DNA of 64,000 nucleotides from a virus. Taxonomy: Duplodnaviria; Heunggongvirae; Uroviricota; Caudoviricetes. Below, piece after piece: positions 3,671 through 27,923 of this stretch. The notes under the pieces are model-generated. The model was not told the DNA's origin. It ran no database searches and saw only the letters and a list, made by a program, of their open reading frames with translations. Made by a program: the position numbers and the translations under genes. The stretch is taken from the IMG/VR virus record IMGVR_UViG_2718218305_000006; one strand, written 5' to 3'. Positions within the stretch are counted from its first letter, which is position 1; each line of letters starts with the position of its first letter.

Positions 3671-3677
3671 GGACGAT

Positions 3678-4443: not shown

Positions 4444-4866
4444 ATGTTTCTGAAAACAGAACAATTTGAATATAACGGTGTGTCCGTCACGCTTTCCGAA
4501 TTGTCTGCGCTGCAGCGGTTTGATTATATGAAGTTTGTTTCAGACGCAGCACAACAGAAGACAACGAAGCATAATGCCGTGCACATTAACCAGCGATATC
4601 TGGAAACGGCATCCCTGCTTGTGGCGATGTCGCTATGGCATTCCCATTCCCTCAAAGGCACTCTGGCCTCTCCGGAGACAGAGATGCAGCAGATCCGCCG
4701 TGAAGTGATGCTGGGATGGCCTGCTGATGCACTGAATCAGGCAACGAACCGGGTGCTTTATCTTTCAGGTATGCTGGATAACCGGCACGATGCCGATCCT
4801 GAACCAACCGGGAAAGCAGAAGCGACAGAGCCGGTAACATCAAAAAAGCATTCGAAGGTGAGCTGA
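4444..4866 (+). CDS. G: Tail assembly chaperone G
   Basis: 140 aa starting MFLKTEQFEYNGVSVTLSELSALQR, lambda gpG-like. Confidence 0.85.
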   Translation: MFLKTEQFEYNGVSVTLSELSALQRFDYMKFVSDAAQQKTTKHNAVHINQRYLETASLLVAMSLWHSHSLKGTLASPETEMQQIRREVMLGWPADALNQATNRVLYLSGMLDNRHDADPEPTGKAEATEPVTSKKHSKVS

Positions 4867-5201
4867 ACTTTGTCCTGAAACTGGCGCGTGAGATGGGGAG
4901 AGCCGACTGGCGCGCCATGCTTGCCGGGATGACATCCACCGAATATGCCGACTGGCGACGTTTTTACTGCACGCATTATTTTCAGGATACCCAGCTGGAT
5001 ATGCATTTTTCCGGGCTGACGTACGCCGTACTCAGCCTGTTTTTTTGCGATCCGGATATGCATCCGGCGGATTTCAGCCTGTTCGCTCCGGAGGCAGAGG
5101 AAGGACAGGCGGAGACGCCGGACGAAAATGATGTACTGATGCAGAAGGCGGCGGGCCTCGCCGGTGGAGTCCGTTTCGGGGAGGAGGGAAGGAGGTTGTG
5201 A
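4842..5201 (+). CDS. T: T segment of G-T fusion chaperone, reached by programmed -1 frameshift from G at A_AAA_AAG (4842-4848)
   Basis: -1 frame is open from 4803; in-phase slippery heptamer tcA AAA AAG; shifted frame reads ..KKAFEGELNFVLKLAREMGRADWRAMLAGMTSTEYADWRRFY, lambda gpT-like. Confidence 0.75.
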   Translation, partial: KKAFEGELNFVLKLAREMGRADWRAMLAGMTSTEYADWRRFYCTHYFQDTQLDMHFSGLTYAVLSLFFCDPDMHPADFSLFAPEAEEGQAETPDENDVLMQKAAGLAGGVRFGEEGRRL

Positions 5202-5244
5202 CAGTTATTGATGGTATCAGAGGACATTTCAGGAGGTGACCACG

Positions 5245-7890
5245 ATGGCAGGTAATTTTGCCGATCTGACAGCCGTGCTGACACTGGATTCTGCCCGTTT
5301 TTCTGAAGAGGCAGCGCGGGTAAAAAAAGAGCTGGGTGAAACCAGTGCGCTTGCTGATTTGATGTCCGGGAAAGTCAGTCAGTCTTTCAGAAAACAGGCT
5401 GATGCTGCTGAGCAGAGTCTGAGCCGACAGGCGCTGGCTGCACAAAAAGCCGGGATATCAGTCGGACAGTATAAGGCTGCCATGCGCACACTGCCCGCAC
5501 AGTTCACGGATATTGTCACTCAGCTTGCCGGTGGTCAGAATCCCTTCCTTATCATGCTGCAGCAGGGGGGGCAGATCAGCGATTCATTCGGTGGACCGCT
5601 CAGCCTGCTTACCCTGCTGAAGGAGGAACTTCTCGGGATCAGGGATGCCTCTGAATCATCAGAGGAGTCGCTGTCAGATACGGCAAATGCACTGGCTGAA
5701 AATGCCCGGAATGCCGGTGAGCTGGGACGATTTATGTCGGTGGCCCGTGTGGCGGCAGGTGGCGGGGTTGCCGTACTGGCCGCGCTTGCTGCCGCCGCCT
5801 GGCAGGCAGAGCAGGCTGACCGGGCCTTATTGCGTTCACTGACCCTGACCGGAGGGGCTGCTGCCACCACAACGGCAGAATTGTGGAAAATGGCCGGGGT
5901 GATCAGCGATGAAGCCGGTGGTGGTATCAGACAGGCGGCAGAAAATCTGGCCCGTCTGGCAGAAAGCGGGAAATATACCGCCGGGCAGCTACGGATCATG
6001 GGGGAAACCTCTCAGAGATGGCTGCAGACGGTGGGGGACGATGCCGGGAAGGTGGAAAAAGCCTTTGAAGGGATTGCAGCAGATCCGGTGAAGGCGCTGG
6101 CCTCCCTGAATCAGCAGTATAACTTCCTGAGCGTTTCCCAGTTACGCCATATTGATGAGCTTGAGCGCACGAAAGGTAAACAGGCTGCGGTGACGGAGGC
6201 GATGTCCCTGTTTGCGGATGTCATGAATGCACGTCTGGAGCAACTTGATAAAGCGGCCACGCCGGTGGAAAAAATCTGGGACGATGTTAAAACCTGGACT
6301 TCTGACGCATGGGCATGGATAGGTGATCATACACTGGGGGCACTCAGTCTGATCACTGACGTGGTGGCAGGAACCGTTGAACAGGTGAAGCTGCTGCTTG
6401 TGCAGGGGGATCTGGCGCTGGCTGAATTTATTCAGTCAGCCTGGGAAACGACAAAGAATGTGCCCGGCGTTGGTGCGTTGTTTGGTGAACTGGCAGAAGA
6501 GAACCGCGTATTTATTGAGAAAACAAAACGCGATGAACTGGCGCTGAGAAAATCCATTGCGGAACGGGATGCGCGTATACGCCAGGGGGAAATGGGGTAC
6601 ATCAACCGTTCGCGTGCAACAGGCGTCAGCAAAGGTCCGGGGCAGCAGGAAGCCGTCAGCCGTCTGGCTGAAGAGCTGACAGGTAAAAAGCATACATCAC
6701 CGAAAACGCGCTCTGCCGGGGAGAGGGAAGAGGAGCAGGCAAGAGAGGCTCTGCTTGCCCTTGAAGCTGAGCTCAGGACGCTGGAAAAACACAGCGGTGC
6801 GAATGAGAAAATCAGCCGGCAGCGCCGTGATTTATGGAAGGCGGAAAGTCAGTATGCGGTCCTGAAAGAGGCTGCCACGAAACGACAGTTATCTGAGCAG
6901 GAAAAATCCCTGCTGGCGCATAAAGACGAGACGCTGGAGTACAAACGCCAGCTGGCTGAGCTGGGCGACAAGGTTGAATACCAGAAACGCCTGAATGAGC
7001 TGGCACAGCAGGCGGTGCGGTTTGAAGAGCAGCAGAGCGCGAAGCAGGCCGCCATCAGCGCAAAAGCCCGCGGTCTCACTGACCGTCAGGCGCAGCGGGA
7101 GTCTGAAGCGCAGCGTCTTCGGGACGTGTACGGTGATAATCCGGCTGCGCTGGCGAAGGCCACATCGGCACTGAAGAACACCTGGTCTGCGGAGGAGCAG
7201 CTTCGTGGAAGCTGGCTGGCCGGGCTGAAGTCCGGCTGGGGGGAGTGGGCGGAAAGTGCGACGGACAGTTTTTCGCAGGTTAAAAGTGCTGCCACGCAGA
7301 CCTTTGACGGTATTGCACAGAATATGGCGGCGATGCTGACCGGTGCAGAGGCAGACTGGCGGGGATTCACCCGTTCGGTGCTGTCCATGATGACAGAAAT
7401 CCTGCTTAAACAGGCCATGGTGGGCATTGTCGGGCGTATCGGCAGCGCCATTGGCGGTGCTTTCGGTGGTGGTGCATCTGCTTCCTCGGGGACGGCCATT
7501 GAGGCTGCGGCGGCGAACTTCCATTTCGCGACCGGAGGATTTACGGGGACGGGCGGCAAATATGAGCCTGCGGGGATAGTTCACCGCGGGGAGTTTGTTT
7601 TCACGAAAGAGGCAACCAGCCGGATAGGTGTGGGGAATCTTTACCGTCTGATGCGCGGCTATGCGGAAGGTGGTTATGTGGGTGGTGCCGGAAGTCCGGC
7701 GCAGATGCGGCGGGCGGAAGGTATTAATTTTAATCAGAACAATCACGTGGTGATTCAGAACGACGGCACCAACGGACAGGCGGGGCCGCAGCTGATGAAG
7801 GCGGTGTATGACATGGCCCGCAAGGGGGCGCAGGATGAGCTCCGGCTGCAGTTGCGTGATGGCGGTATGTTATCGGGGAGCGGGCGATGA
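5245..7890 (+). CDS. H: Tail tape measure protein H
   Basis: ATG at 5245 with AGGAGG 8 nt upstream (track start 5236 is a GTG inside the SD); C-terminal two-thirds and last residues (..LRDGGMLSGSGR) match lambda gpH; stop overlaps M start (ATGA). Confidence 0.9.
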   Translation: MAGNFADLTAVLTLDSARFSEEAARVKKELGETSALADLMSGKVSQSFRKQADAAEQSLSRQALAAQKAGISVGQYKAAMRTLPAQFTDIVTQLAGGQNPFLIMLQQGGQISDSFGGPLSLLTLLKEELLGIRDASESSEESLSDTANALAENARNAGELGRFMSVARVAAGGGVAVLAALAAAAWQAEQADRALLRSLTLTGGAAATTTAELWKMAGVISDEAGGGIRQAAENLARLAESGKYTAGQLRIMGETSQRWLQTVGDDAGKVEKAFEGIAADPVKALASLNQQYNFLSVSQLRHIDELERTKGKQAAVTEAMSLFADVMNARLEQLDKAATPVEKIWDDVKTWTSDAWAWIGDHTLGALSLITDVVAGTVEQVKLLLVQGDLALAEFIQSAWETTKNVPGVGALFGELAEENRVFIEKTKRDELALRKSIAERDARIRQGEMGYINRSRATGVSKGPGQQEAVSRLAEELTGKKHTSPKTRSAGEREEEQAREALLALEAELRTLEKHSGANEKISRQRRDLWKAESQYAVLKEAATKRQLSEQEKSLLAHKDETLEYKRQLAELGDKVEYQKRLNELAQQAVRFEEQQSAKQAAISAKARGLTDRQAQRESEAQRLRDVYGDNPAALAKATSALKNTWSAEEQLRGSWLAGLKSGWGEWAESATDSFSQVKSAATQTFDGIAQNMAAMLTGAEADWRGFTRSVLSMMTEILLKQAMVGIVGRIGSAIGGAFGGGASASSGTAIEAAAANFHFATGGFTGTGGKYEPAGIVHRGEFVFTKEATSRIGVGNLYRLMRGYAEGGYVGGAGSPAQMRRAEGINFNQNNHVVIQNDGTNGQAGPQLMKAVYDMARKGAQDELRLQLRDGGMLSGSGR

Positions 7891-8216
7891 AAACATTTCG
7901 CTGGAAAGTGAAGCCGGATATGGAGGTGAACTCGCAGCCGTCGGTGCGTGAAGTGCGTTTTGGTGACGGGTACTCACAGCGTATGGCGGCAGGGCTGAAT
8001 GCTGACCTGAAAACATACCGTGTGACGCTTTCCGTGACCCGGGAGGAGGCCCGGCATCTGGAAGCGTTCCTGGCAGAGCACGGAGGCTGGAAGGCATTTT
8101 TGTGGAAGCCACCCTATGCATACCGGCAGATAAAGGTGACCTGTGCCGGGTGGTCTGCGCGGGTCGGGATGTTGCGCGTTGAGTTCAGCGCGGAGTTTAA
8201 GCAGGTGGTGAACTGA
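7887..8216 (+). CDS. M: Minor tail protein M
   Basis: 109 aa MKTFRWKVKPDMEVNSQPSVREVRFGDGYSQR.. lambda gpM-like. Confidence 0.9.
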   Translation: MKTFRWKVKPDMEVNSQPSVREVRFGDGYSQRMAAGLNADLKTYRVTLSVTREEARHLEAFLAEHGGWKAFLWKPPYAYRQIKVTCAGWSARVGMLRVEFSAEFKQVVN

Positions 8217-8914
8217 TGCAGGATATCCACGAAGAAAGTCTTAACGAGTCGGTAAAATCAGAGCAGTCACCGCGGGTGGTGCTCTGGGAAATTGACCTGA
8301 CGGTGCAGGGCGGTGAGCGCTATTTTTTCTGCAATGAGCTGAATGAAAAAGGGGAGGCGGTCACCTGGCAGGGGCGGCAATATCAGGCATACCCGATTGA
8401 CGGCAGTGGCTTTGAGATGAACGGGAAGGGCAGCAGTGCCAGACCGTCGCTGACGGTGTCCAATCTGTTTGGTCTGGTCACCGGGATGGCGGAGGACCTG
8501 CAGAGCCTGGTGGGGGCCACGGTGGTCCGCCGCCGGGTGTATGCCCGTTTTCTGGATGCGGTGAATTTTGTGGCGGGCAATCCGGAAGCGGACCCGGAGC
8601 AGGAGCTGAGCGACCGCTGGGTGGTGGAGCAGATGTCAGAGCTGACGGCCATGACAGCCTCGTTTGTGCTGGCAACACCGACGGAGACGGACGGGGCGCT
8701 GTTTCCTGGTCGCATCATGCTGGCGAACACCTGTATGTGGGATTACCGGGGAGATGAATGCGGGTATAACGGTCCTGCGGTGGCGGATGAGTTCGACAAC
8801 CCCACCACGGATATCCGTAAGGACAGATGCAGCAAGTGCATGCGCGGGTGTGAGATGCGCGGCATGGTGGCTAATTTTGGCGGTTTCCTTTCCATTAATA
8901 AACTTTCGCAGTAA
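8216..8914 (+). CDS. L: Minor tail protein L
   Basis: 232 aa lambda gpL-like, Cys-rich C-terminus. Confidence 0.9.
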   Translation: MQDIHEESLNESVKSEQSPRVVLWEIDLTVQGGERYFFCNELNEKGEAVTWQGRQYQAYPIDGSGFEMNGKGSSARPSLTVSNLFGLVTGMAEDLQSLVGATVVRRRVYARFLDAVNFVAGNPEADPEQELSDRWVVEQMSELTAMTASFVLATPTETDGALFPGRIMLANTCMWDYRGDECGYNGPAVADEFDNPTTDIRKDRCSKCMRGCEMRGMVANFGGFLSINKLSQ

Positions 8915-8924
8915 ATCCCGGTTT

Positions 8925-9668
8925 ATGACACAGACTGAATCAGCGATTCTGGCGCATGCCCGGCGGTGTGCGCCTGCGGAGTCGTGCGGCTTCGTGGTGA
9001 GAACGCCGGAGGGGGAGCGGTATATCCCTTGTGTGAATATCTCTGCAGAGCCGGAGGCGTATTTTCGTATTGCACCGGAAGACTGGCTGCGGGCAGAGAT
9101 GCAGGGGGAGATTGTGGCACTGGTCCACAGTCATCCCGGTGGTCTGCCCTGGCTGAGCGAGGCCGACCGGCGGCTGCAGATAAAAAGTGCACTGTCCTGG
9201 TGGCTGGTCTGCCGGGGGGACATTCATAAATTCCGCTGTGTGCCACATCTGACAGGACGGCTCTTTGAGCACGGGGTGACGGACTGTTACACGCTGTTCC
9301 GGGATGCATACCATCTGGCGGGGACTGAAATGCCGGATTTTCATCGCGAGGATGACTGGTGGCGCAACGGCCAGAACCTGTACCTGGACAATATGGAGGG
9401 AACGGGCTTTTACCGGGTGCCCCTGTCCTCTGCACAGGCGGGCGATATTCTGCTGTGCTGCTTTGGTGCTTCGGTACCGAACCATGCCGCCATTTACTGT
9501 GGCAACGGTGAGCTGCTTCACCATCTGCCTGAACAACTGAGTAAACGGGAGAGGTATTCCGAAAAATGGCAACGACGAACGCATTCTGTCTGGCGTCACC
9601 GCCACTGGCACGCATCTGCCTTCACGGGGATTTACAACGATTTGGCCGCCGCCTCAGCCTGTATGTGA
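8925..9668 (+). CDS. K: Tail assembly protein K (MPN/NlpC-P60-like)
   Basis: ATG at 8925 (MTQTESAILAHARRC..) equals the 247-aa copy at 52876; track ORF 8664 is an upstream in-frame extension. Confidence 0.85.
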   Translation: MTQTESAILAHARRCAPAESCGFVVRTPEGERYIPCVNISAEPEAYFRIAPEDWLRAEMQGEIVALVHSHPGGLPWLSEADRRLQIKSALSWWLVCRGDIHKFRCVPHLTGRLFEHGVTDCYTLFRDAYHLAGTEMPDFHREDDWWRNGQNLYLDNMEGTGFYRVPLSSAQAGDILLCCFGASVPNHAAIYCGNGELLHHLPEQLSKRERYSEKWQRRTHSVWRHRHWHASAFTGIYNDLAAASACM

Positions 9669-19533: not shown

Positions 19534-20079
19534 TTGATAACAGAGGGCGTTGCAGCGGGGTTGTCACTTAAGCGTATGGTCAACCTGACAACCCGGTGTC
19601 CTCAATGGGGAAGGAATAACCCCGCCATACTTACCGCCGCGCCATTTCGCGGAGTGCCACAACCGGAAGCGCACGTTCGAAGAAATCTAACGACAAGCCT
19701 TCTAAGGGAAAGAGCTTCGCCGTACGCTTTCGCGTTATGCACTGACTTTTCAGGGAAATATCCTTTCAGTAAACTGTCAGTACCGGATTCTTATCCGTGT
19801 CCGGCGCACGACCACACGTGACAGCGTGTTGGTCTCCATTTTTAACCCAGAACCTCAATGGAGGATAAAATGCCAAACAAAAAAAGAAATCCGCTTATTG
19901 AAAAACAGATTGAATGCCTGGTAAATCAACTCAGGCAATCAGGGTTATTAAAAACTCATTCAGAGTTGAGGCTCACAGAATCAGCATTCGACGATAAATT
20001 AAATAATGTCCTTTATAATGGCATTATTGATTTTAATCGTTCTGTTGGTCGCCGCGGCCCTGCTGGTGTTTCCTTATAA

Positions 20080-20730
20080 TTACCAGTCAATCCAGAGTGG
20101 ACCGTGTTCAGCGTAAATATAACTGTACACATCCAGATTATATTTGTGGTCTGTTAAGAACAGGCCGCAAATACATGCCGAAGCTTCCAGTGCAGCGGCT
20201 CTGTTACTGAATAACCATGTAGCAACATTCCAGCGTTTTTCTGCATCCCAGTCTTTCTCAAGGCCTGATACCATGAAGAAACCGTTAGTGTTGCCATCAA
20301 ATAATTCTGTTTCCAAATTTTTAAGCAATGCCTGATGGACTCTTGCCAGGTATTCCGCCGGAATTTCGCCACGAATTCTGATGAGATTGTCATAAACAAA
20401 CATGTTCCCCGCATATGGCGATTTTTCTTTCTTGTTTTTTAAACCAGCATCATGAGCAAACTGATCAATTTCTTCTTCCGTTGGTTTCGTATTGATGTTT
20501 TGCGCTGTCGTTTCTGCAATTTTATTTGCCACACTCTCTGAGTCGTGTTTATTTATAGACGCACAGAAATACAATCCGGTAAACGCATCGCGCACATTAC
20601 GAGCCATATTATCAGTGTCTTTTTTCGTTACCGATTCCAATTCAAGTTCGTTCAGACGATGACGAAGTGTGTGTGCTGCAATCTCCTGGATTGAAGGAGG
20701 TAAATCTTTAAATTCCATCGTCAACCTCAT
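20080..20730 (-). CDS. Hypothetical protein, 216 aa, early-left operon, no recognisable domain
   Basis: Hydrophilic ORF; ATG overlaps stop of upstream small ORF (1-nt overlap), suggesting translational coupling. Confidence 0.55.
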   Translation of the reverse strand: MRLTMEFKDLPPSIQEIAAHTLRHRLNELELESVTKKDTDNMARNVRDAFTGLYFCASINKHDSESVANKIAETTAQNINTKPTEEEIDQFAHDAGLKNKKEKSPYAGNMFVYDNLIRIRGEIPAEYLARVHQALLKNLETELFDGNTNGFFMVSGLEKDWDAEKRWNVATWLFSNRAAALEASACICGLFLTDHKYNLDVYSYIYAEHGPLWIDW

Positions 20731-20882
20731 CAGTCAGTGTTTCTGGCTAACCAGCGACGCGCGCCAGCTTCAGTTTTAAACGTTTTGCTTTTGGTATACG
20801 TCATCGCGGTGAACGTACCGTCCTGGTTGGGGAACACGCCACATACCAGAGATTCGTTGTTGCCAAGATTGAGCGTATCCAT
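20730..20882 (-). CDS. Small protein, 50 aa (YdfA-like position; first gene after the pL-like region)
   Basis: ATG at 20882 with GAGG 7 nt upstream; track ORF starts at an earlier ATG at 20963. Confidence 0.4.
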   Translation of the reverse strand: MDTLNLGNNESLVCGVFPNQDGTFTAMTYTKSKTFKTEAGARRWLARNTD

Positions 20883-21088
20883 GTTGACCTCATTTCCCCT
20901 TAACGCCGGGGTAGCGGAACAAAAACCTGCTGCATAGTTATTAAAGTTGAACCCTGCCGTCATGTTCTTACGCCTCGGGCTGGCTACTTAACCCCTGACC
21001 ACTGCCTGGTAACTCGAAGTATTGCCCTGCATTCTGTGGGGCGGGGTGAGGGAATGAATGAAGTTTAGAAAAACGAACATTTAAGGTC

Positions 21089-21110
21089 AATGTTTTTTTA
21101 TCAAAACATT
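21089..21110. promoter_or_regulatory. Palindromic candidate operator in pL-like region (AATGTTTT-tttatc-AAAACATT)
   Basis: Perfect 8-bp inverted repeat between cI 3' end and first early-left gene; shares ATCAAAAC/GTTTTGAT motif with the cI-cro intergenic region. Confidence 0.35.
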
Positions 21111-21174
21111 TTAAGCAGGCAGCTGTTACGCCATCACTACGATGGCATACAGTTAATCAAATAGATGAGGTTGG

Positions 21175-21813
21175 TTAAATATCTTGTTGAATTTTAAAGC
21201 ATACTCCCAATATGCAAGATAGATCATCCAGCATAATTGAAGGGTAGCGAGGATTCGTGGGGACTAAAAGAATATCCGGCCCTTCTATCTCCAGTTTGCG
21301 AATGACAGGCGTTGTGGTCCCTTTGGGTAAGGCAAGGACAATATTTCCTGGTTGTACGATTCGATCGGGATCAACAAAAACTGTTGAACCATTTGGGATG
21401 GAAACTCCACCACCAGATGTCGACATACTGTCACTCTCTAGAACAACAGCAAAGGTATTGGCCGGGATTTCTCCGACAAGCTGCACACAAGAGGTTATTG
21501 AGGAATTTTTCATATAATCACTCCAGCTTGCTGCCTGCTGAAGTGATAGTAGCGGAACCGTTTTTATCGGCGGTAAAGATAGATCAAGCGAATCACCTGT
21601 ATTTAACTCTCCTCCATTAAGAAGCCAATTTTCGTTTACTTTCAATATCTTTGCCAGTGAACTTATGTAACGCGAGGACGGCGCTCCTCCACCGTTCATC
21701 CATTGACTTACGGAGCCTTTTGATGCGCCAGTGGCATTGACAAGGTCTTTGCCTTTCAAGTTTAGCGCATGCATACGTTGGGTTATGCGTTCAGATATTG
21801 TTTGCTTGTTCAT
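21175..21813 (-). CDS. cI: CI-like repressor (HTH_XRE N-terminal domain + S24 LexA-like peptidase domain)
   Basis: 212 aa; N-terminal HTH (..LKGKDLVNATGASKGSVSQWMNG..), C-terminal self-cleavage-type domain; divergent from cro-like gene. Confidence 0.85.
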   Translation of the reverse strand: MNKQTISERITQRMHALNLKGKDLVNATGASKGSVSQWMNGGGAPSSRYISSLAKILKVNENWLLNGGELNTGDSLDLSLPPIKTVPLLSLQQAASWSDYMKNSSITSCVQLVGEIPANTFAVVLESDSMSTSGGGVSIPNGSTVFVDPDRIVQPGNIVLALPKGTTTPVIRKLEIEGPDILLVPTNPRYPSIMLDDLSCILGVCFKIQQDI

Positions 21814-21904
21814 GTTTTGATTTTAAAACACAGATGGTTTTGTTTCTTGACTTTCTTTGGTTTTGATTATTAAACTTTTGGCGTTCAGTTTTATGGAGCG
21901 ACTC
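21814..21904. promoter_or_regulatory. Immunity-region intergenic: candidate oR operators and divergent pRM/pR promoters
   Basis: Three GTTTTG(A/T)T repeats (21814, 21837, 21860), TTGACT -35-like hexamer at 21847-21852, SD TGGAG before cro. Confidence 0.45.
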
Positions 21905-22147
21905 ATGAAAAAATCAGAAGTATTAGGCTATTTTGGCGGAGTTGTTAAAACAGCCGCCGCTCTAGGAACGTCAAAAACCACAGTCAGCATGTGGGGGGAA
22001 GACGTTCCGTGGAAATGGGCGTTGCTAATTCAGGCAGTCACTGCCGGGGCGCTCAAATATGAGTTACACATACCGACGGTTGTCATTCCCGATTCTGATC
22101 ATAATCCGCCTTCTAACCAAGGGGGGATTCATGAAAATCAAGCATGA
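21905..22147 (+). CDS. cro: Cro-like HTH regulator (YdaS-like)
   Basis: 80 aa MKKSEVLGYFGGVVKTAAALGTSKTTVSMWGEDVPW..; divergent from cI. Confidence 0.65.
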   Translation: MKKSEVLGYFGGVVKTAAALGTSKTTVSMWGEDVPWKWALLIQAVTAGALKYELHIPTVVIPDSDHNPPSNQGGIHENQA

Positions 22148-22556
22148 ACACATCCGCATGGCGATGAATGCCTGGGCGCGTCCTGATGGCGAAAAAGTTC
22201 CGGCAGCTGGAATAACCCAGGCTTATTTTGAGTTGGGTATGACGTTTCCTGAACTGTACGACGACAGCCATCCGGAAGCCCTGGCTCGCAATACCCAGAA
22301 AATTTTCCGCTGGATAGAGAAAGACACCCCTGATGCAGTTGAAAAAATGCAGGCTCTGTTACCGGCGATCGAAAAGGCAATGCCGCCTCTGCTGGTGGCC
22401 CGTATGCGCAGTCACAGCTCTGAATATTACCGTGAGATCGTCGAACGGAGGGATCGGCTGGTGAAAGATGTGGATGATTTTGTCGCAGCGGCGATCGCCT
22501 GGGGCACCCTGACTAACAGTGGGGGTCAGCCTGGTAATGCTGTTGTCGTGCATTGA
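22131..22556 (+). CDS. YdaT-like protein (cII-position regulator)
   Basis: 141 aa from ATG at 22131 with GGGGGG SD; overlaps cro-like 3' end; resembles Rac YdaT family. Confidence 0.45.
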   Translation: MKIKHEHIRMAMNAWARPDGEKVPAAGITQAYFELGMTFPELYDDSHPEALARNTQKIFRWIEKDTPDAVEKMQALLPAIEKAMPPLLVARMRSHSSEYYREIVERRDRLVKDVDDFVAAAIAWGTLTNSGGQPGNAVVVH

Positions 22557-22624
22557 CCAACAATATTCATGCCGGATTTCTTCCGGATGTTCGAGGGTAA
22601 AGTTCGGTATCAGAAGAGGTGAGT

Positions 22625-23668
22625 ATGGCTAATGCCTGGCTCAGATTGTGGCATGACATGCCAAATGACCCCAAGTGGCGAACGATTGCCAGGGTATCAG
22701 GACAGCCAATCGCAACAGTGATGGCAGTGTATATCCATCTTCTGGTGAGCGCGTCACGAAATGTCACGACATGTCACGGCGTGTCACTACGTGGTCACAT
22801 TGATGTCACGACGGAAGATTTAGCAAGTGCGCTTGATGTGACGGAAGACGTAATTGATTCAATTTTGCATGCAATGCAGGGGCGGGTTCTGGATGGTGAC
22901 CTTATTTCCGGATGGGAAAAACGTCAGGTGCTGAAAGAGGACAATGGTAACGTTTCGCAAACGGCAAAATCCCCGGCAGAGCGCAAGAGAGCGCAGCGGG
23001 AGCGGGAAAAGCTGCGGAAACATAATGCTGATTGTCACGATGAGTCACGACGTGTCACGCATCTGTCACGACAAGTCACGACAGATAAAGATACAGATAA
23101 AGATACAGATACAGAATTAAACCCCACACATAACGCGCGCGAGAGTATTCCGACCAGTGAGTCGAATGGTGCGCCGTTGCAGACAGCCGAACCTGAATAC
23201 CTGGACGGCCTGAGCGAACCGATCGGGAAATTTTCGATGACTACTGTCTGGCAGCCGTCGCCGGATTTTCGACAACGGGCAGCAGTGTGGGGTATGGCTC
23301 TGCCTGAGCCGGAATTTACACCTGCTGAGCTTGCCGCATTCCGGGATTACTGGATGGCGGAGGGGAAGGTTTTCACGCAGGTTCAGTGGGAGCAGAAATT
23401 TGCCCGCCACGTGCAGCACGTCAGGGCACAGGTAAAACCAGTCAGCAAGGGGGGAAGCCATGCAGCATCAGGTGGCACGGCATCACGGGCAGTTCAGGAA
23501 ATCCGGGCTGCACGCGAACAGTGGGAACGTGACAACGGATTTATCAGCAACGGAAACGGCCTGGAAGCTGTGGGAGCTCATGGGGGAGGTGTATTCGAAC
23601 CGCTGGACTCAGAAGAACGGGGCCGCACCTTCGAAGCTCTGGATTGCCCAGATTGGTGCGATGACTGA
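22625..23668 (+). CDS. Replication initiation / replisome-organizer protein (O-like) containing internal origin iterons
   Basis: N-terminus ANAWLRLWHDMPNDPKWRTIA.. resembles phage replisome-organizer N-domains; GTG alternative start at 22619; two clusters of phased GTCACG repeats inside the coding sequence. Confidence 0.65.
   Translation: MANAWLRLWHDMPNDPKWRTIARVSGQPIATVMAVYIHLLVSASRNVTTCHGVSLRGHIDVTTEDLASALDVTEDVIDSILHAMQGRVLDGDLISGWEKRQVLKEDNGNVSQTAKSPAERKRAQREREKLRKHNADCHDESRRVTHLSRQVTTDKDTDKDTDTELNPTHNARESIPTSESNGAPLQTAEPEYLDGLSEPIGKFSMTTVWQPSPDFRQRAAVWGMALPEPEFTPAELAAFRDYWMAEGKVFTQVQWEQKFARHVQHVRAQVKPVSKGGSHAASGGTASRAVQEIRAAREQWERDNGFISNGNGLEAVGAHGGGVFEPLDSEERGRTFEALDCPDWCDD
22753..22810. 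repeat. Iteron cluster 1: six GTCAC(G/T) copies at 10-11 bp spacing
   Basis: GTCAC at 22753, 22763, 22773, 22783, 22794, 22805 (anchored to codons of the O-like gene). Confidence 0.6.
23034..23114. repeat. Iteron cluster 2: five GTCACG copies at 10-11 bp spacing, followed by a 12-bp tandem repeat (GATACAGATAAA x about 3)
   Basis: GTCACG at 23034, 23044, 23054, 23065, 23075; then acagataaagatacagataaagatacagatacag encoding TDKDTDKDTDTE. Confidence 0.6.
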
Positions 23669-24122
23669 ACAGCAAATCCGTCTGGTGTGCCGTCAGTGCA
23701 TGGACCGCTGCCGGGCGGGTGAAACGTGGCCCCCGGACCTGGCTGAGTTTGTTGCGCTGATTTCGGAGAGTGGGGCAAATCCATTTGGTCTTACGGTGGA
23801 TGCCGTGATGGAAGAGTACCGGCGCTGGCGCAATGAATCCTGGCGATACGACGGGAGTGATAAATACCCGTGGCCACAGCCTGTGCTGTACCACATCTGC
23901 CTCGAAATGCGTACCAGAGGGATTGAGCGCCAGATGACGCAAGGTGAGTTAAAACGACTTGCGGAACGGCAACTGACGAAATGGGCAAAGCATGTTGGTA
24001 ACGGGATGAGTGTTCCGCCAGTGCGACGACAACTGGAAGGGGCGAAACACCCGCAAGGGCCAACGCCAATTGAACGGCTGAAACAGGAATACGAACGCCG
24101 GAAGGCAGCTGGTTTTATTTGA
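23580..24122 (+). CDS. P: Replication protein P-like (helicase loader)
   Basis: C-terminal half aligns with lambda P (..YPWPQPVLYHICLEM.. vs ..YPWKSNAHYWLVTNL..; ..TQGELKRLAERQL.. vs ..TDAELRRKAADEL..); start ambiguous (ATG 23580 or 23661; track 23460), overlaps O-like 3' end. Confidence 0.55.
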   Translation: MGEVYSNRWTQKNGAAPSKLWIAQIGAMTEQQIRLVCRQCMDRCRAGETWPPDLAEFVALISESGANPFGLTVDAVMEEYRRWRNESWRYDGSDKYPWPQPVLYHICLEMRTRGIERQMTQGELKRLAERQLTKWAKHVGNGMSVPPVRRQLEGAKHPQGPTPIERLKQEYERRKAAGFI

Positions 24123-24155
24123 ATCTGAGAAACGATTTTGTCGGAGGAAATATTA

Positions 24156-24872
24156 ATGGAAACCGTATTTGACGCACTGAAAGCACTGAAAAAAGCCTCT
24201 TCACAGGTAGTGGCATCGCGCCTTGGAATCAGCCGCGAAGATGCTGTCAACGAACTGTGGAAACTGAAGCGCCGTGGTGAAGCGGATAACAAGGGGTCGA
24301 TGTGGTGGCTGACTCAGACTGGTGAAAGTGAACCAGTGTCACCGGTACCGAAAGTGACAGCGCAAATGCTGACTGAGGCGATTGAACATCATGGCCCACA
24401 AACGGCGGATGAGCTGGCACTGATGTTCGGGATTACCTCCCGCCGGGCGAATTCATCACTGGCCATGGCAATCAGCAAAGGGCGTCTGATTCGCGTGAAT
24501 CAGGGCGGTAAATTTCGGTACTGCATACCGGGCGCTGATTTACCGGCAGAGCCGAAAGCCGCATCCATAACGGAAACGGATGGTAAAGCCTTTCCTCAGC
24601 CAGCAGGTGTTGCGTTACCAGTCGGGGAAGCGGAAACACAGGAAGAAATAAAAACGGAAAGTGTGGCGGTCACAGTGCAGTCACAGCCGTCGTTCACCAG
24701 AAAGCATCCGGATGGTCTGATTTTACCATCGCTGCATGTGGCTAACCGCGAGCTGCGCCGGGCAAAAGGTCAGGTTCAGAAGTGGGAGCGAGTCTGCGCC
24801 GCGCTGCGGGAGCTGAACAAGTGCCGGGATATTCTCCGGGATATTACCGCCACCAGAGAACAGCAGCGGTGA
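24156..24872 (+). CDS. Hypothetical nin-region protein (238 aa)
   Basis: ATG at 24156 with GGAGG 8 nt upstream (track start 24138 is TTG). Confidence 0.55.
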
Positions 24873-25186
24873 GTGGGTGGAAGACGTGGTGCCGGGCGGA
24901 AATCATGATACTCCGGCAGTGTGCGGGAACGATGAAGGTAAAAAGCGTTGGCGCACTTATCGGACGAACTGAAGCGGCAGTGAGAACGAAGGCACGGGAG
25001 CTGGGCATCAGCATGATGTTACGTGGTGATTTTCACCCGTCGGCAAAATATTCTCAGCGTGATATTGAGCTGGCGCGGCAACTGCATCAGAGAGGCATGC
25101 AAAGAAGGGAAATTGCCAGAAAATTAGGCATGCCGCTGCGCATAGTGAATAACTACGTTTATTTCGACAGGAGGGTGTCTGCGTGA
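24869..25186 (+). CDS. Putative DNA-binding protein (HTH-like C-terminus)
   Basis: GTG start overlapping upstream stop (GTGA); ..[19 protein letters not shown].. HTH-like. Confidence 0.4.
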
Positions 25187-25410
25187 AAATCCTGTATCAG
25201 GATTACGGCCCGGTGGGGCAGGTGGTTATCAGCAGTACTGTAATGGAGTTTCGGAAGCATAACCGTGTGGTGGATGCTGTGCTGTTAACCTGTCCGGGGA
25301 TATCGGCGAGTCGTGCAGGTGTGTTTATTATGAAGACGAAATTATATGGCAGTAAGGCGTGGATAAAGAAGGCGTATCGTGTAGCGTTGCAGGAGGTTAA
25401 CAGTGAGTGA
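25183..25410 (+). CDS. Hypothetical protein (75 aa)
   Basis: GTG start overlapping upstream stop; translationally coupled series in nin-like region. Confidence 0.4.
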   Translation: MKILYQDYGPVGQVVISSTVMEFRKHNRVVDAVLLTCPGISASRAGVFIMKTKLYGSKAWIKKAYRVALQEVNSE

Positions 25411-25714
25411 AATTAAAGAAATGCCGGTAGTTCGTGACGGATATGGCTACTGGACACATCCTGAATATGAAAAATTCTGTGATGGTCGGGAATATATTTC
25501 AACGGAAGAGTTTAACGCCTGGATGGAGGAAAATAATCTTCAATACGTCCTCTGCTTCAGAGATGAAGGATGTGCTGACCTTGATGCGTGTGATGCTGAT
25601 ATTTCTGCATGGGAACCGGAACGACCAGAGGGCGATGGCTGGTTTATTGGTTCCATTCATGATACGGAAGATGGCCCGGTTTGTGTCTGGTTGCGAAATA
25701 AGGCTGAAGCATAA
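25403..25714 (+). CDS. Hypothetical protein (103 aa), acidic, Cys-containing
   Basis: ORF overlapping upstream gene by 8 nt. Confidence 0.45.
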   Translation: MSEIKEMPVVRDGYGYWTHPEYEKFCDGREYISTEEFNAWMEENNLQYVLCFRDEGCADLDACDADISAWEPERPEGDGWFIGSIHDTEDGPVCVWLRNKAEA

Positions 25715-25841
25715 AGGCGATAAACCAACTAACAACTAAATACTGAAGATTTAAATCAGAAACGATTTTTATTAAATCCTTAACCGGAGGGATTCCTGCA
25801 CCCTCAGAACATCAGGAGGCCGCCCGAAAGGGCGGTAAGAA

Positions 25842-26060
25842 ATGAAACATTATTTAGAAAAAAATTACCCACGAAAGAGCAGAACAACAGAGTTTCTGTT
25901 TTTCATTCTGTTTATAGTGTTGATGATACCGATATCCCCGCTATTACTGGTCTGGATAATTGGAAGGACATTTGAACCAGTTATTGAGCTATATACCGAT
26001 GTGACATGGGAATCATTCAGCGCACTGCACAATAAAATTAATCCGTATAAGGAAAACTGA
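25842..26060 (+). CDS. Small membrane protein (72 aa)
   Basis: Central hydrophobic helix FLFFILFIVLMIPISPLLLVWIIG. Confidence 0.45.
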   Translation: MKHYLEKNYPRKSRTTEFLFFILFIVLMIPISPLLLVWIIGRTFEPVIELYTDVTWESFSALHNKINPYKEN

Positions 26061-26061
26061 T

Positions 26062-26619
26062 ATGAGCACTATTACCAGAGAACGCGCGGAGATTAAATCA
26101 TACATCACAGGCTTCCTGAGCGACTCGGCGCACGATAACAAGTCTTCAGACAGCCTGCTGGCTAATGTGTTTCGTATCGCGCTGGCATCACTGGAAGCAG
26201 AGCCGATAGCAATGGTAGTGCCTGATGAAATGGATTTGCTTACCTGCCATCTCGACGGTGTAACTAAAACATATGCTGATGGCTGGAACGCCTGCCGCGT
26301 CGCCATGCTTCAGGCCGGAAACTTTCGGGAAAATAAGAATTCGTCAACCAACAATTTTCGGGAAATCTCGGAAACGTCAACCAGATCTCCGATAACTCTG
26401 GATGGCTGGATAAGCTGTACTGAGCGAATGCCTGAAAAGAGCCAGAACGTGCTTATTTCGATGAATATCGATAGCGAGGCTGGGCCATTAATATATTCCG
26501 CACGCTATCTCGGAGGCACGTTCCGGCGCGGAGGTATAGCAGTTAGTCCGGGTAATGATCTTAGGCAAGCAACCCACTGGATGTCGCTACCAGAACCGCC
26601 GCAGGAGGTGAATCAATGA
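26062..26619 (+). CDS. DUF551-like phage protein
   Basis: 185 aa; C-terminal ..DGWISCTERMPEKSQNVLIS.. typical of DUF551 prophage proteins. Confidence 0.55.
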   Translation: MSTITRERAEIKSYITGFLSDSAHDNKSSDSLLANVFRIALASLEAEPIAMVVPDEMDLLTCHLDGVTKTYADGWNACRVAMLQAGNFRENKNSSTNNFREISETSTRSPITLDGWISCTERMPEKSQNVLISMNIDSEAGPLIYSARYLGGTFRRGGIAVSPGNDLRQATHWMSLPEPPQEVNQ

Positions 26620-26699
26620 CCTGGCCTGAAGCATTCACAACGGTAGGAATTGCGATGGCGGTGGCGCTGGTGGTGTATTCGATTTGCCGCTGGGGATAA
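26616..26699 (+). CDS. Possible 27-aa hydrophobic peptide, translationally coupled (ATGA overlap)
   Basis: MTWPEAFTTVGIAMAVALVVYSICRWG; very short, speculative. Confidence 0.2.
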   Translation: MTWPEAFTTVGIAMAVALVVYSICRWG

Positions 26700-26909
26700 A
26701 AACGGTTTGCGGGAAAAGGATAGTTAAGTAGAATTGCTGCGGGTGCTTGAGGCTATCTGCCTCGGGCATGAACACCAACGGCAGATAGAGAAAAGCCCCA
26801 GTTAACATTACGCGTCCTGCAAGACGCTTAACATTAATCTGAGGCTCAATCCATGCTGAACACATGTAGGTTAGCCTCTTACGTGCCGAAAGGCAAGGAG
26901 AAGCAGGCT

Positions 26910-27065
26910 ATGAAGCAGCAAAAGGCGATGTTAATCGCCCTGATCGTCATCTGTTTAACCGTCATAGTGACGGCACTGGTAACGAGGAAAGACCTCTGCG
27001 AGGTGCGAATCCGAACCGGTCAGACGGAGGTCGCTGTCTTCGTAGACTACGAATCTGAGAAGTAA
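26910..27065 (+). CDS. hokD: Hok/Gef-family type I toxin (HokD/RelF-like)
   Basis: 51 aa MKQQKAMLIALIVICLTVIVTALVTRKDLCEVRIRTGQTEVAVFVDYESEK; near-identical over most of its length to recalled HokD; track ORF 26853 is an in-frame upstream extension. Confidence 0.8.
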   Translation: MKQQKAMLIALIVICLTVIVTALVTRKDLCEVRIRTGQTEVAVFVDYESEK

Positions 27066-27184
27066 GAGACCAGGCGGGGGAGTAATCTCCCGCCACCTCT
27101 GATGTGTCAGGCATCCTCAACGCACCCGCGCTTTACCATACTGAAAATGCTGTTTGAATGTTCATCTCTGAAAGAGGACTATGA

Positions 27185-27529
27185 ATGAAAAAGGTATTGA
27201 TTGCAGCACTTATTTCCGGTGTGTCTTTTGGCGCTTTTGCACAGCAGGGTGGTTTCCAGGGGCCAGAAGCAGAGCGTTCAACAGTAGCGCAGGCAAAAGA
27301 ACTGAAGGATGATGCATGGGTTATCCTTGAAGGGAGCATCGTTAAAAAAGTGGGTGATGAACGTTATGAGTTTCGTGACAATAGCGGGACAATTGTCACG
27401 GATATTGATGACAGCGTATGGGCCGGGCAGAATGTTTCTCCGAAAGACAAAGTAAGAATTGAGGGTGAAATTGATAAAGACCTGAGCAGTGTTGAAGTTG
27501 ATGTAAAGGCACTGAAATTATTAAAGTAA
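27185..27529 (+). CDS. Secreted OB-fold protein (BOF/YgiW family)
   Basis: 114 aa with signal peptide MKKVLIAALISGVSFGAFA; YgiW-like. Confidence 0.6.
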   Translation: MKKVLIAALISGVSFGAFAQQGGFQGPEAERSTVAQAKELKDDAWVILEGSIVKKVGDERYEFRDNSGTIVTDIDDSVWAGQNVSPKDKVRIEGEIDKDLSSVEVDVKALKLLK

Positions 27530-27650
27530 CCGCCCCTGCTTGTTAAGCCCGTCTTACTGACGGGTTTTCTGTTTGTACATTCCGGCGTATTGCCTTACAA
27601 TTCGCGCAGTCAGCCTGAACAACTGACACCTGCTGTCACCGGAGAATCCG

Positions 27651-27923
27651 ATGACACAACACATAAAATCCCACAATTCTGAAGCCGACCCGGAAATTAA
27701 GCAGGGGAGGCGTTTTCGTGCGCCTCAGTATGGCTGGTTTCACTATCTGTTCTGTACGATCGATGAGGCAGATATGCTTCAAGAGGCGTATCTGCGTCGC
27801 GGTGTCCGTGTGGAGCGGAGTCTGAACGCTGATCGTCTGACCTGGACCGTTTCTGTATATCTTCCTGTTCGTGCACATCTGCCACGGACACATGCCTGCT
27901 ACCGTCAGCGCGTCTGGAGGTAA
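27651..27923 (+). CDS. Hypothetical protein (90 aa)
   Basis: ORF with ATG start in nin-like region. Confidence 0.4.
   Translation: MTQHIKSHNSEADPEIKQGRRFRAPQYGWFHYLFCTIDEADMLQEAYLRRGVRVERSLNADRLTWTVSVYLPVRAHLPRTHACYRQRVWR

What the first reader, a model, noticed from the sequence alone, without database searches (positions are those of the whole stretch)
20080..20963. Two coupled early-left genes of unknown function immediately downstream of the cI/pL-like region
A 50-77 aa ORF and a 216-aa hydrophilic ORF with a 1-nt stop/start overlap occupy the first positions of the leftward early operon. Neither resembles N, the recombination genes or known exclusion proteins. Early-left positions next to the repressor are typical sites for host-takeover, exclusion or abortive-infection functions.
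Basis: inference. Interest (0 to 1): 0.5.

Follow-up and report, generated by a model that had tools for sequence, protein, structure and literature searches.

The report
First genes of prophage dicBF operon

Summary
Both ORFs exist at the stated coordinates on the minus strand and are genuine, selected genes. The likely starts give 50 aa (20730-20882) and 212 aa (20080-20718). These are separated by 11 nt carrying a GAGG ribosome-binding site, so the 1-nt overlap is probably a longest-ORF artefact.

Gene 1 is an 86%-identical copy of K-12 YdfA (Pfam DUF1391), the first gene of the Qin dicBF operon. DicF RNA, dicB, a ydfD-like gene and a truncated recE follow downstream. A sigma-70-like promoter with the same 16-mer operator found twice between cI and cro lies upstream. 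The "early-left operon" reading is therefore right, but it is a known operon type.

Gene 2 (PHROG 2151, "Ybl81") replaces ydfB/ydfC. It has a constant about 55-aa N-module shared with many prophage proteins, a disordered linker, and an orphan alpha/beta C-domain.

That C-domain is always paired with a convergent 69-aa basic protein gene at 19870-20079: 74 of 74 viral loci, plus Salmonella int-C-cox prophages. Both are under purifying selection.

No Pfam, NCBIfam, PADLOC, PDB or fold match gives a function. My best guess is a cognate lysogeny/lytic partner pair. This is inference only.

The parts
21175..21813 (-). cI-like repressor (212 aa: N-terminal HTH plus C-terminal S24 LexA-type peptidase domain).
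   Evidence: Pfam Peptidase_S24 8e-13 and HTH_3; PHROG 4 transcriptional repressor.
21814..21875 (.). OR-like region between cI and cro, with two copies of the 16-mer operator GTTTTGATNNNNAAAC (21814-21829 and 21860-21875).
   Evidence: There are only 3 matches in 64 kb, 0.36 are expected, and 0 of 100 shuffles reach 3.
21092..21107 (.). OL-like operator, the third copy of the same 16-mer, abutting the -35 hexamer of the leftward promoter.
21062..21090 (-). pL/dicBp-like sigma-70 promoter (TTGACC, 17 nt, TAAACT) reading into ydfA.
   Evidence: Consensus scan. Its position matches the K-12 dicBp upstream of ydfA (PMC10448788). The promoter call is a consensus match and has not been shown to function.
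20730..20882 (-). ydfA homologue (DUF1391, 50 aa), first gene of the operon. The 77-aa extension to 20963 is probably untranslated leader.
   Evidence: PF07151 at 102 bits against a cut-off of 27.3; 86% identity to K-12 YdfA; RefSeq WP_000380316.1.
20539..20718 (-). p212 gene, constant N-module (aa 1-60; two helices; MEFKDLP..DNMARNVRDAFTGLY).
   Evidence: The module is shared with PHROGs 1363, 9419, 6937 and 33007. About 45 of 53 representative hits share it. In 53 of 54 ydfA loci it starts at a fixed 10-11 nt after the ydfA stop.
20428..20538 (-). p212 gene, acidic low-confidence linker (aa 61-97), which is the recombination zone between the modules.
   Evidence: pLDDT is below 50 for residues 48-99. 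dN/dS is about 0.5. The same N-module is fused to unrelated tails after ..AFTGL.
20080..20427 (-). p212 gene, orphan C-domain (aa 98-212, beta-beta-alpha-beta-beta-alpha-beta sandwich) plus the stop codon.
   Evidence: pLDDT is about 80. dN/dS is 0.14-0.18. Relatives occur only in Escherichia and a few Salmonella prophages.
19870..20079 (+). Convergent 69-aa basic protein gene (s69, PHROG 4274), stop-to-stop with p212.
   Evidence: PHROG 4274 at 1.4e-51; RefSeq WP_001133037.1; GGAGG 5 nt before the ATG; dN/dS 0.21-0.27. It is always next to the C-domain gene.
19532..19810 (-). Conserved block upstream of dicF (the processed part of the polycistronic RNA). Its left edge, GTGCGCCGGACAC, is also conserved upstream of s69 in Salmonella.
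   Evidence: Alignment of 8 cassette types; E. coli versus Salmonella alignment; RNase E/III processing described in PMC10448788.
19480..19531 (-). DicF small RNA.
   Evidence: Rfam RF00039 at 75 bits (gathering score 48), E 1.7e-15, full length.
19117..19305 (-). dicB (62 aa cell-division inhibitor).
   Evidence: PF05358 at 123 bits; RefSeq dicB.
18932..19120 (-). ydfD-like DUF1482 gene.
   Evidence: PF07358 at 56 bits.
17595..18839 (-). Truncated recE (exonuclease VIII N-terminal part), marking the end of the operon in a defective prophage.
   Evidence: PF06630 at 1.6e-34. RefSeq marks the recE pseudogene as incomplete (missing its C-terminus) and the integrase fragment beside it as frameshifted and incomplete.

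Best explanation
The region is the promoter-proximal part of a Qin/Rac-like 'dicBF' early-left operon in a defective O157-type lambdoid prophage.

When the cI-like repressor leaves the OL-like operator, one transcript runs through ydfA, p212, DicF, dicB, the ydfD-like gene and truncated recE. Gene 1 is a YdfA (DUF1391) orthologue. Gene 2 (p212) fills the variable slot that holds ydfB/ydfC in K-12. It is a soluble acidic protein built from a constant two-helix N-module, a disordered linker and an exchangeable C-terminal domain.

Proposed mechanism (inferred, not shown): the C-domain and the convergent basic 69-aa protein (s69) form a cognate pair with mutually exclusive expression.
- s69 would be made in the lysogen from its own signals, antisense to the operon.
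- p212 would be made only after derepression. The pL-type transcript would then also be fully antisense to s69 mRNA.
- p212-C would bind and neutralise s69, or the reverse. This would switch off a lysogen-state activity (exclusion or regulation) during the prophage's own lytic programme, in the manner of sieB/esc.

Confidence differs by layer. The operon identity and gene models are near certain (about 0.95). The claim that the cassette is a linked unit is good (about 0.7). The partner-switch mechanism is a low-confidence guess (about 0.3).
For: Operon identity:
- DUF1391 at 102 bits, DicB at 123 bits, DUF1482 and ExoVIII; DicF at 75 bits.
- 86% identity to K-12 YdfA and the same gene order as Qin.
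- 100% identical DNA in O157:H7 and O121 chromosomes.
- A 16-mer operator occurs 3 times, only in the immunity region, next to sigma-70-like promoters.
- Published data show that the K-12 transcript starts upstream of ydfA and yields DicF (PMC10448788).

Modularity:
- The N-module is shared by many short proteins with unrelated tails.
- N-module alleles reassort independently of the C-domain.

Cassette:
- In all 74 IMG/VR loci that encode s69, the C-domain gene sits convergent and stop-to-stop.
- In Salmonella-type int-C-cox prophages at 4 or more insertion sites, a C-domain protein (34-38% identical over the C-domain) with a non-homologous N-terminus sits right after cox. It again has a convergent s69 homologue at 42-53% identity.
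- The two families have the same narrow Escherichia/Salmonella range.
- Both are under purifying selection.
- Their charges are opposite: pI 5.2 against 9.7.
- No terminator-like site lies between the two genes, so the two transcripts must be mutually antisense.
- Rac carries the exclusion gene sieB convergent at the equivalent position, right after its DUF1391 gene.
Against: - No physical interaction, expression or phenotype data exist.
- No consensus promoter for s69 was found in E. coli or Salmonella.
- Adjacency alone can keep two small genes together during horizontal transfer.
- In other cassette types the pairing is not strict. The 124-aa tail occurs with no convergent gene in 7 loci, with a different one in 1 locus, or truncated with a third one in 4 loci.
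- s69 carries an A7-to-A6 frameshift in 8 of 57 A7-type loci while p212 stays intact where checked (L030 and L071). A strict dependence of p212 on s69 is therefore unlikely, unless these are sequencing errors.
- The structure model is only moderate (mean pLDDT 61), and the fold matches are generic.
Confidence: 0.45

Rival explanations
1. The genes are independent accessory genes. p212 is an early lytic host-takeover or counter-defence protein: the constant N-module docks onto a common host or phage partner (possibly YdfA), and the interchangeable C-domains reflect an arms race. s69 and the other convergent small genes are unrelated morons that landed in the same recombination hot spot.
For: - p212 is promoter-proximal in an early operon whose other products act on the host (DicF, DicB, YdfD; PMC5069750 and PMC6832061).
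- At least 5 unrelated tails sit on one N-module.
- The 124-aa tail occurs with 0, 1 or another convergent gene.
- N-module proteins in Stx2a phages lie deep in the early-left operon with no convergent partner.
- s69 frameshift variants keep p212 intact where checked (L030 and L071).
Against: The C-domain and s69 co-occur in 74 of 74 loci. The pairing survives transfer to a different prophage type with a different N-terminus and 50-65% protein divergence. No known anti-defence or takeover family matched.
Confidence: 0.3
2. The module is a toxin-antitoxin or abortive-infection unit. One of p212 and s69 (or YdfA and p212) would be a toxin, and the other would neutralise it, protecting the lysogen population against superinfecting phages.
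For: The genes form a tight pair with opposite charges. They sit next to the repressor, where rexAB and sieB-type exclusion genes lie (Rac sieB). The downstream gene dicB is itself known to exclude phages (PMC6832061).
Against: - PADLOC gave no hit for any of the three proteins or for 10 relatives.
- There is no Pfam toxin or antitoxin domain.
- The convergent layout is unlike type II toxin-antitoxin operons.
- p212 sits behind a repressed promoter, so it would be absent in the lysogen that needs protection.
- s69 is frameshifted in some genomes without loss of p212.
Confidence: 0.12
3. The genes are regulators of the lysis/lysogeny switch. p212 and s69 would modulate the repressor or early transcription, for example as a CII-, antirepressor- or Cox-helper-like function.
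For: - The genes sit directly after the switch genes in both prophage types: after cI/pL here, and directly after cox in Salmonella.
- One relative (P0141) has an HTH_3 domain inserted between its N-terminus and the C-domain.
- s69 is small and basic, with a conserved ..SGLLK.PS.LK.. and RR.PAG tail.
Against: Most family members lack any DNA-binding domain. The fold matches are generic ferredoxin-like hits. The prophage already has cro-, cII-position and repressor genes. K-12 Qin functions with unrelated ydfB/ydfC in this slot.
Confidence: 0.1
4. The genes are decaying, functionless remnants of a cryptic prophage.
For: The prophage is defective, with a truncated recE and integrase. No function is known for any ydfA-slot gene (PMC10448788).
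Against: Purifying selection acts on all parts, with dN/dS 0.14-0.38. The ORFs are intact in hundreds of genomes. The cassette is conserved across genera.
Confidence: 0.03

Closest known systems
E. coli K-12 Qin prophage dicBF operon (dicA/dicC - ydfA - ydfB - ydfC - dicF - dicB - ydfD - ydfE)
   Same: The gene order and content at both ends match: ydfA first (86% identical protein), then DicF RNA, dicB, a ydfD-like gene and a recE/ydfE remnant. Transcription comes from a repressor-controlled promoter upstream of ydfA.
   Different: The repressor here is a cI/LexA-type protein with an S24 domain, not DicA. Induction by SOS is therefore plausible, which is an inference. ydfB and ydfC are absent and show no similarity to p212. 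They are replaced by the 212-aa modular gene plus a convergent 69-aa gene. The 5'-proximal genes have no known function in either case.
Rac prophage early-left region (racR - ydaG - ydaF(DUF1391) - sieB(convergent) - kilS - kilR - recE)
   Same: A DUF1391 gene sits near the repressor and is followed immediately by a gene on the opposite strand whose 3' end meets it. Ten of the 74 s69 loci have kilR instead of dicB downstream.
   Different: sieB encodes a 162-aa protein and is not homologous to s69 (no tblastn match). s69 has no hydrophobic segment. Rac has no N-module protein.
sieB/esc (and the sas antisense RNA) of phages P22 and lambda. This comparison comes from my own knowledge (Ranade and Poteete 1993) and was not retrieved here.
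   Same: The concept is the same: an exclusion gene expressed in the lysogen and embedded in the early-left operon, countered by a phage-made antagonist during lytic growth, with sense/antisense transcription involved.
   Different: There is no sequence or structural relationship. Esc is an in-frame part of SieB, whereas here the proposed antagonist is a separate protein domain on the other strand. The activity of s69 is unknown.
Polymorphic effector/immunity cassettes (CdiA-CT/CdiI, Rhs-CT/RhsI). This is an analogy from general knowledge.
   Same: A constant N-terminal part is joined to interchangeable C-terminal domains, each variant arriving with its own small neighbouring gene. Recombination break-points fall at the domain junction.
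   Different: The proteins are small and cytoplasmic, with no secretion signal and no toxin domain. The partner gene is convergent rather than downstream and co-directional. The pairing is not strict for every tail type.

Membership tests
YdfA / DUF1391 (Pfam PF07151) | Match to the family profile above the curated threshold | tested here: met
   102.1 bits against a gathering score of 27.3, with model positions 1-47 of 48 covered.
YdfA / DUF1391 (Pfam PF07151) | About 50-aa protein encoded near the start of a repressor-controlled prophage early-left operon | tested here: met
   50 aa; 86% identical to K-12 YdfA; first gene after the operator and promoter; RefSeq names it a 'DUF1391 family protein'.
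dicBF-type operon (Qin) | DicF sRNA followed by dicB in the same orientation, downstream of ydfA | tested here: met
   RF00039 at 75 bits against 48; PF05358 DicB at 123 bits.
dicBF-type operon (Qin) | DicA repressor and DicC upstream | tested here: not met
   The repressor carries an S24 peptidase domain. NCBIfam DicA scores 41 bits against a cut-off of 101, on the HTH only. DicC scores 31 bits against 130.
dicBF-type operon (Qin) | ydfB and ydfC between ydfA and dicF | tested here: not met
   MAFFT alignment of p212 with K-12 YdfB and YdfC shows no meaningful similarity: nominal 17% and 22% identity over gap-rich alignments, with 2 invariant columns. BLAST of YdfB and YdfC against the window gave no hit.
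PHROG 2151 ('Ybl81', unknown function) | Full-length match to the family profile | tested here: met
   E 1.9e-147, with profile positions 1-212 of 212 covered. There is one 50%-identity cluster worldwide.
Known anti-phage defence systems (PADLOC-DB v2) | Match of any component to a defence-system model | tested here: not met
   There were no hits at E up to 1 for YdfA, p212 and s69, and none at E up to 0.1 for 10 relatives except a generic HTH.
Type II toxin-antitoxin pair | Two co-directional, co-transcribed small genes with a recognisable toxin or antitoxin domain | tested here: not met
   p212 and s69 are convergent. There is no Pfam or NCBIfam toxin or antitoxin domain.
Type II toxin-antitoxin pair | Toxicity of one partner relieved by the other | not testable with these tools
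   This needs expression experiments.
SieB superinfection exclusion | Sequence similarity to SieB and hydrophobic membrane segments | tested here: not met
   BLAST searches (blastp, tblastn) with Rac SieB found nothing in the window or the cassette loci. The maximum 19-residue hydropathy of s69 is 0.22.
Lambda N-type antiterminator (first gene of pL operons) | Match to N-family profiles; a basic arginine-rich protein | tested here: not met
   There is no such Pfam or PHROG hit. YdfA is near neutral and p212 is acidic. The leader RNA is not unusually structured, with z 0.48. nut sites were not searched for specifically.
Prp/YsxB-like cysteine protease fold (weak BFVD and PDB hits) | Conserved catalytic His and Cys, and confident fold similarity | tested here: not met
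   The best E-values are 1.8e-3 (BFVD) and 0.03 (1s12), with TM-scores below 0.45. No His or Cys is invariant between the E. coli and Salmonella C-domains.

The most novel reading that the evidence does not exclude
The slot between ydfA and dicF (and the equivalent slot after cox in Salmonella-type prophages) would be a hot spot for a previously undescribed class of polymorphic two-gene modules. Each module would be a variable C-terminal domain grafted onto a constant early-lytic N-module, plus a cognate small protein encoded convergently and expressed in the lysogen. Each pair would work as a lysogeny/lytic switchable effector-antagonist system, either exclusion or defence with built-in self-immunity, or a timed host-shutoff device. 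This would give a function to the long-unexplained ydfABC region of dicBF operons.
Probability: 0.22. Interest if true: 0.65.

Novelty: new variant of a known kind. Interest (0 to 1): 0.4.

Why it matters
dicBF operons are present in most E. coli and in several copies in EHEC O157. Their products DicF and DicB affect cell division, metabolism, phage resistance and virulence regulation.

The promoter-proximal genes have had no assigned function since the 1980s. That still held in 2023 (PMC10448788).

This work shows three things about the slot:
- It is modular and polymorphic.
- In about 10% of complete E. coli genomes it holds a selected two-gene convergent cassette.
- The same cassette is shared with unrelated Salmonella prophages.

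Together these turn 'hypothetical proteins' into a concrete, testable pair: binding, exclusive expression, exclusion or toxicity. If the pair is an exclusion/antagonist or timer module, it would add a new kind of prophage accessory system. If it is not, these remain ordinary uncharacterised early genes.

Tried and rejected
- **Profile libraries.** Pfam, NCBIfam, PHROGs and PADLOC on all three proteins and on relatives gave only DUF1391 and function-less PHROGs.
- **PDB sequence searches.** Searches with p212, YdfA and s69 gave nothing below E 0.05.
- **Structure models.** Two AlphaFold2 models of p212 reached pLDDT 63 and 61. Only the C-domain is usable.
- **ydfB/ydfC.** Homology of p212 to K-12 YdfB and YdfC was rejected.
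- **N-termini across genera.** Homology between the E. coli N-module and the Salmonella N-terminus was rejected (hhalign probability 0.75%).
- **Isolated phages and plasmids.** Full-length p212 and s69 are absent from both collections. Only the N-module appears, in Stx2a phages and PPompW.
- **Species representatives.** The GTDB species-representative scan for s69 found nothing.
- **s69 promoter.** A sigma-70 promoter for s69 was not found by the consensus scan in the window or in Salmonella. Candidates picked by eye were unconvincing.
- **Leader RNA.** A structured (put/nut-like) leader between the promoter and ydfA was not supported (z 0.48).
- **Literature.** Searches for Ybl81, DUF1391, the WP accessions and YdfA/YdaF gave no functional data. 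The 'ydfA' on IncI plasmids in PMC12111858 is discussed only as a gene of the ibfA operon and adds nothing on function; I take it to be an unrelated gene name (own knowledge, not tested).
- **Strict tail-partner covariation.** The idea that every tail type has a strictly cognate convergent gene was weakened by the 124-aa tail type.
Full report
**What is there.**
On the minus strand, the ORF listing gives a 77-aa ORF at 20730-20963 and a 216-aa ORF at 20080-20730. They share one base in the sequence TGATG. Upstream lies a 212-aa cI-like repressor gene at 21175-21813, with an HTH and an S24 peptidase domain. It is followed by divergent cro-like and YdaT/cII-position genes and replication genes.

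Downstream on the same strand are:
- a full-length DicF RNA at 19480-19531 (Rfam 75 bits, gathering score 48);
- dicB at 19117-19305 (PF05358, 123 bits);
- a ydfD-like DUF1482 gene;
- a truncated recE running into an integrase fragment.

Window 17654-28104 differs from the E. coli O157:H7 strain TR01 chromosome at only two positions (17654 and 27951). Window 19400-21200 is 100% identical to that chromosome and to O121 and other EHEC genomes. There the region belongs to the second of two tandem lambdoid prophages.

**Gene models.**
The first gene is YdfA.
- Pfam DUF1391 aligns model positions 1-47 to residues 29-75 of the long ORF (102 bits).
- K-12 YdfA aligns from Met28 at 86% identity.
- GAGG lies 5 nt before that ATG.
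- RefSeq annotates 50 aa.

The second gene most likely starts at MEFKDLP (ATG 20718, 212 aa).
- PHROG 2151 and RefSeq both start there.
- In 53 of 54 related loci the MEFKDLP start lies at one fixed distance after the ydfA stop.
- The 11-nt spacer TGAGGTTGACG carries the ribosome-binding site.

The upstream ATG that creates the 1-nt overlap is conserved, because it lies in that same spacer. It has no ribosome-binding site of its own. The two genes are therefore tightly linked but probably not overlapping.

**Early-left operon.**
A 16-mer, GTTTTGATNNNNAAAC, occurs three times in the 64-kb window and nowhere else. Two copies lie between cI and cro (21814-21829 and 21860-21875). One lies at 21092-21107, directly against the -35 hexamer of a leftward TTGACC-17-TAAACT promoter at 21090-21062. 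Only 0.36 matches are expected, and 0 of 100 shuffles reach three.

This is the classic OR/OL arrangement. It matches the experimentally mapped K-12 situation. [quoted passage not shown]

It differs from Qin in two respects:
- The repressor is of the cI/LexA type rather than DicA.
- ydfB and ydfC are missing.

**The 212-aa protein.**
It has no Pfam, NCBIfam or PADLOC match. Its full-length family is tiny. There is one 50%-identity cluster among 1.8 billion representatives. About 150 clusters at 90% identity exist, all from Escherichia or Salmonella, some labelled 'Ybl81'.

The protein is modular.
- **N-module.** Residues 1 to about 55 (MEFKDLP..IQEIAA..L....DNMARNVRDAFTGLY, two predicted helices) recur at the N-terminus of dozens of short prophage proteins with unrelated C-terminal tails. 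These include proteins of Stx2a phages and PPompW.
- **Linker.** Residues 61-97 are acidic, predicted disordered and weakly constrained (pLDDT below 50; dN/dS about 0.5).
- **C-domain.** Residues 98-212 form a beta-beta-alpha-beta-beta-alpha-beta sandwich (pLDDT about 80). Strong purifying selection acts on it (dN/dS 0.14-0.18).

**ydfA and the N-module travel together.**
Among 80 IMG/VR loci recovered with YdfA, 54 have an N-module gene right after ydfA. At least five unrelated tails occur, giving proteins of 106/124, 112, 119/133, 122 and 212 aa.

The same N-module allele, identical over 49 residues, is fused to two unrelated tails. The break-point follows ..AFTGL.

A distant N-module protein (P0162, about 25% identical) is also preceded by a DUF1391 gene, in a repressor-DUF1391-X-kilR-recE operon. 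Another (P0170) is not.

It does not show what the unit does.

**The partner outside the finding.**
A 69-aa ORF at 19870-20079 on the plus strand ends exactly where the 212-aa gene ends, stop codon against stop codon. It is a real gene.
- It matches PHROG 4274 end to end.
- RefSeq annotates it.
- GGAGG lies 5 nt before its ATG.
- Its dN/dS is 0.21-0.27.
- The protein is basic, soluble and without a membrane segment (pI 9.7).

The pairing with the C-domain is consistent.
- In all 74 IMG/VR loci that encode it, the C-domain gene lies convergent and abutting. dicB lies downstream in 48 loci and kilR in 10.
- The only distant relatives of the C-domain are Salmonella-type proteins of 206-286 aa, 34-38% identical over the C-domain.
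- Their N-terminus is not homologous to the E. coli N-module (hhalign probability 0.75%). One of them has an inserted HTH_3 domain.
- They sit immediately after cox, in int-C-cox prophages at four or more chromosomal sites.
- Each of them again has a convergent s69 homologue overlapping its 3' end, at 42-53% identity.
- The s69 family has the same narrow Escherichia/Salmonella range.

So [C-domain + s69] is a mobile two-gene cassette. It has been plugged into two different early operons behind two different N-terminal modules.

**A variable slot.**
An alignment of eight cassette types shows that about 280 nt upstream of DicF are conserved in all of them. The variable segment begins right after the start codon and ribosome-binding site of the convergent small gene, and ends inside the N-module gene.

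Other tails have their own convergent small genes. These are PHROGs 4987, 18692, 7249 and 10348, each matched end to end, all of unknown function.

The pairing is consistent for tail112 (10 of 10 loci) and tail133 (5 of 5 loci). It is not consistent for the 124-aa tail. That tail occurs without a partner in 7 loci, with PHROG 7249 in 1 locus, and truncated with another gene in 4 loci. I therefore treat cognate pairing as well supported only for the cassette in this window.

In Rac, the exclusion gene sieB occupies the equivalent convergent position right after the DUF1391 gene ydaF.

**How it most likely works.**
The following is shown or well supported:
- The two genes are the first cistrons of a repressor-controlled early-left transcript that continues into DicF and dicB.
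- No terminator-like site separates p212 from s69. That transcript is therefore antisense to the whole s69 gene, and any s69 transcript is antisense to p212.

The following is inferred:
- s69 is expressed in the lysogen and p212 only after derepression.
- The acidic C-domain and the basic s69 are a cognate binding pair.
- p212 switches off the lysogen-state activity of s69, or is buffered by it, during the prophage's own lytic programme. This would resemble sieB/esc.

Several observations count against this model:
- No s69 promoter could be identified. A 13-mer, GTGTCCGGCGCAC, about 60 nt upstream of s69, is conserved between E. coli and Salmonella.
- 8 of 57 loci have an A7-to-A6 frameshift at s69 codons 3-5, and in the two frameshifted loci examined directly (L030, L071) p212 is intact.
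- Pairing is loose in other cassette types.

The rival explanations are independent early takeover or counter-defence genes, a toxin-antitoxin or abortive-infection module, a switch regulator, and decaying remnants. They are scored separately in the report.

**Comparison with known systems and novelty.**
- Gene 1 is a member of YdfA/DUF1391. All features tested were met.
- The operon is a dicBF-type operon in which two defining features of the Qin prototype are not met: the DicA repressor, and ydfB/ydfC.
- Gene 2 belongs only to a function-less PHROG.
- No known defence, toxin-antitoxin, SieB or N family fits.

No paper in the searchable library assigns a function to ydfA or ydfB/ydfC-slot genes, or mentions this protein.

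I rate the finding a new variant of a known kind. It is ordinary in being hypothetical early prophage genes. It has a modestly interesting and testable twist in the cross-genus convergent cassette and the polymorphic slot.

Noticed in passing
window 19870-20079 (+): A 69-aa basic protein gene (PHROG 4274) converges stop-to-stop on the 212-aa gene. It accompanies the C-domain in 74 of 74 viral loci and in Salmonella prophages. It lies outside the coordinates of the finding.
   Followed up: yes
window 19873-19890; loci L139-L146, L030, L071: A run of 7 A at codons 3-5 of the 69-aa gene is 6 A in 8 of 57 loci, which frameshifts the gene. This could be phase variation or homopolymer sequencing error in draft assemblies.
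   Followed up: partly
window 21175-21813 (-): The cI-like repressor ORF is intact at 212 aa (HTH plus S24). On identical DNA, RefSeq/PGAP (strain TR01) annotates only the C-terminal 112 aa as a 'LexA family protein'. PHROG 8558 also covers only residues 101-212.
   Followed up: partly
window 19796-19810; L005 about 8880; L003 and L004: The 13-mer GTGTCCGGCGCAC, about 60 nt upstream of the 69-aa gene, is conserved between E. coli and Salmonella cassettes. It also marks the edge of the conserved block upstream of dicF in all cassette types. It may be a regulatory or recombination boundary element.
   Followed up: partly
window 19273-19482 (-): A sub-threshold Rfam match to STnc100 (34.7 bits against a gathering score of 47, E 1.3e-4) spans the DicF-dicB spacer and the start of dicB.
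   Followed up: no
window 17062-18839 (-): recE is cut to 414 aa, and its end overlaps a 183-aa integrase C-terminal fragment. The left end of this prophage is deleted, so the element is defective. IS66 and IS256 copies lie nearby in strain TR01.
   Followed up: partly
window 1-16300 and 47600-62200: There are two near-duplicate sets of lambdoid tail genes (tape measure, J-like and fibre-size ORFs). This is consistent with two tandem prophages, as in O157 Sp11/Sp12 or CP-933O-type regions. nleG7 is annotated in the corresponding TR01 region.
   Followed up: no
L164-L166 (protein P0141): One variant of the C-domain protein has an HTH_3 (XRE) domain inserted between its N-terminus and the C-domain. 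It still sits directly after cox and still has the convergent small gene.
   Followed up: partly
L041, about 420-1600 nt after ydfA: An IS3-family-like transposase pair is inserted between the N-module gene and its convergent partner gene in one locus. This shows that the slot tolerates insertions.
   Followed up: no
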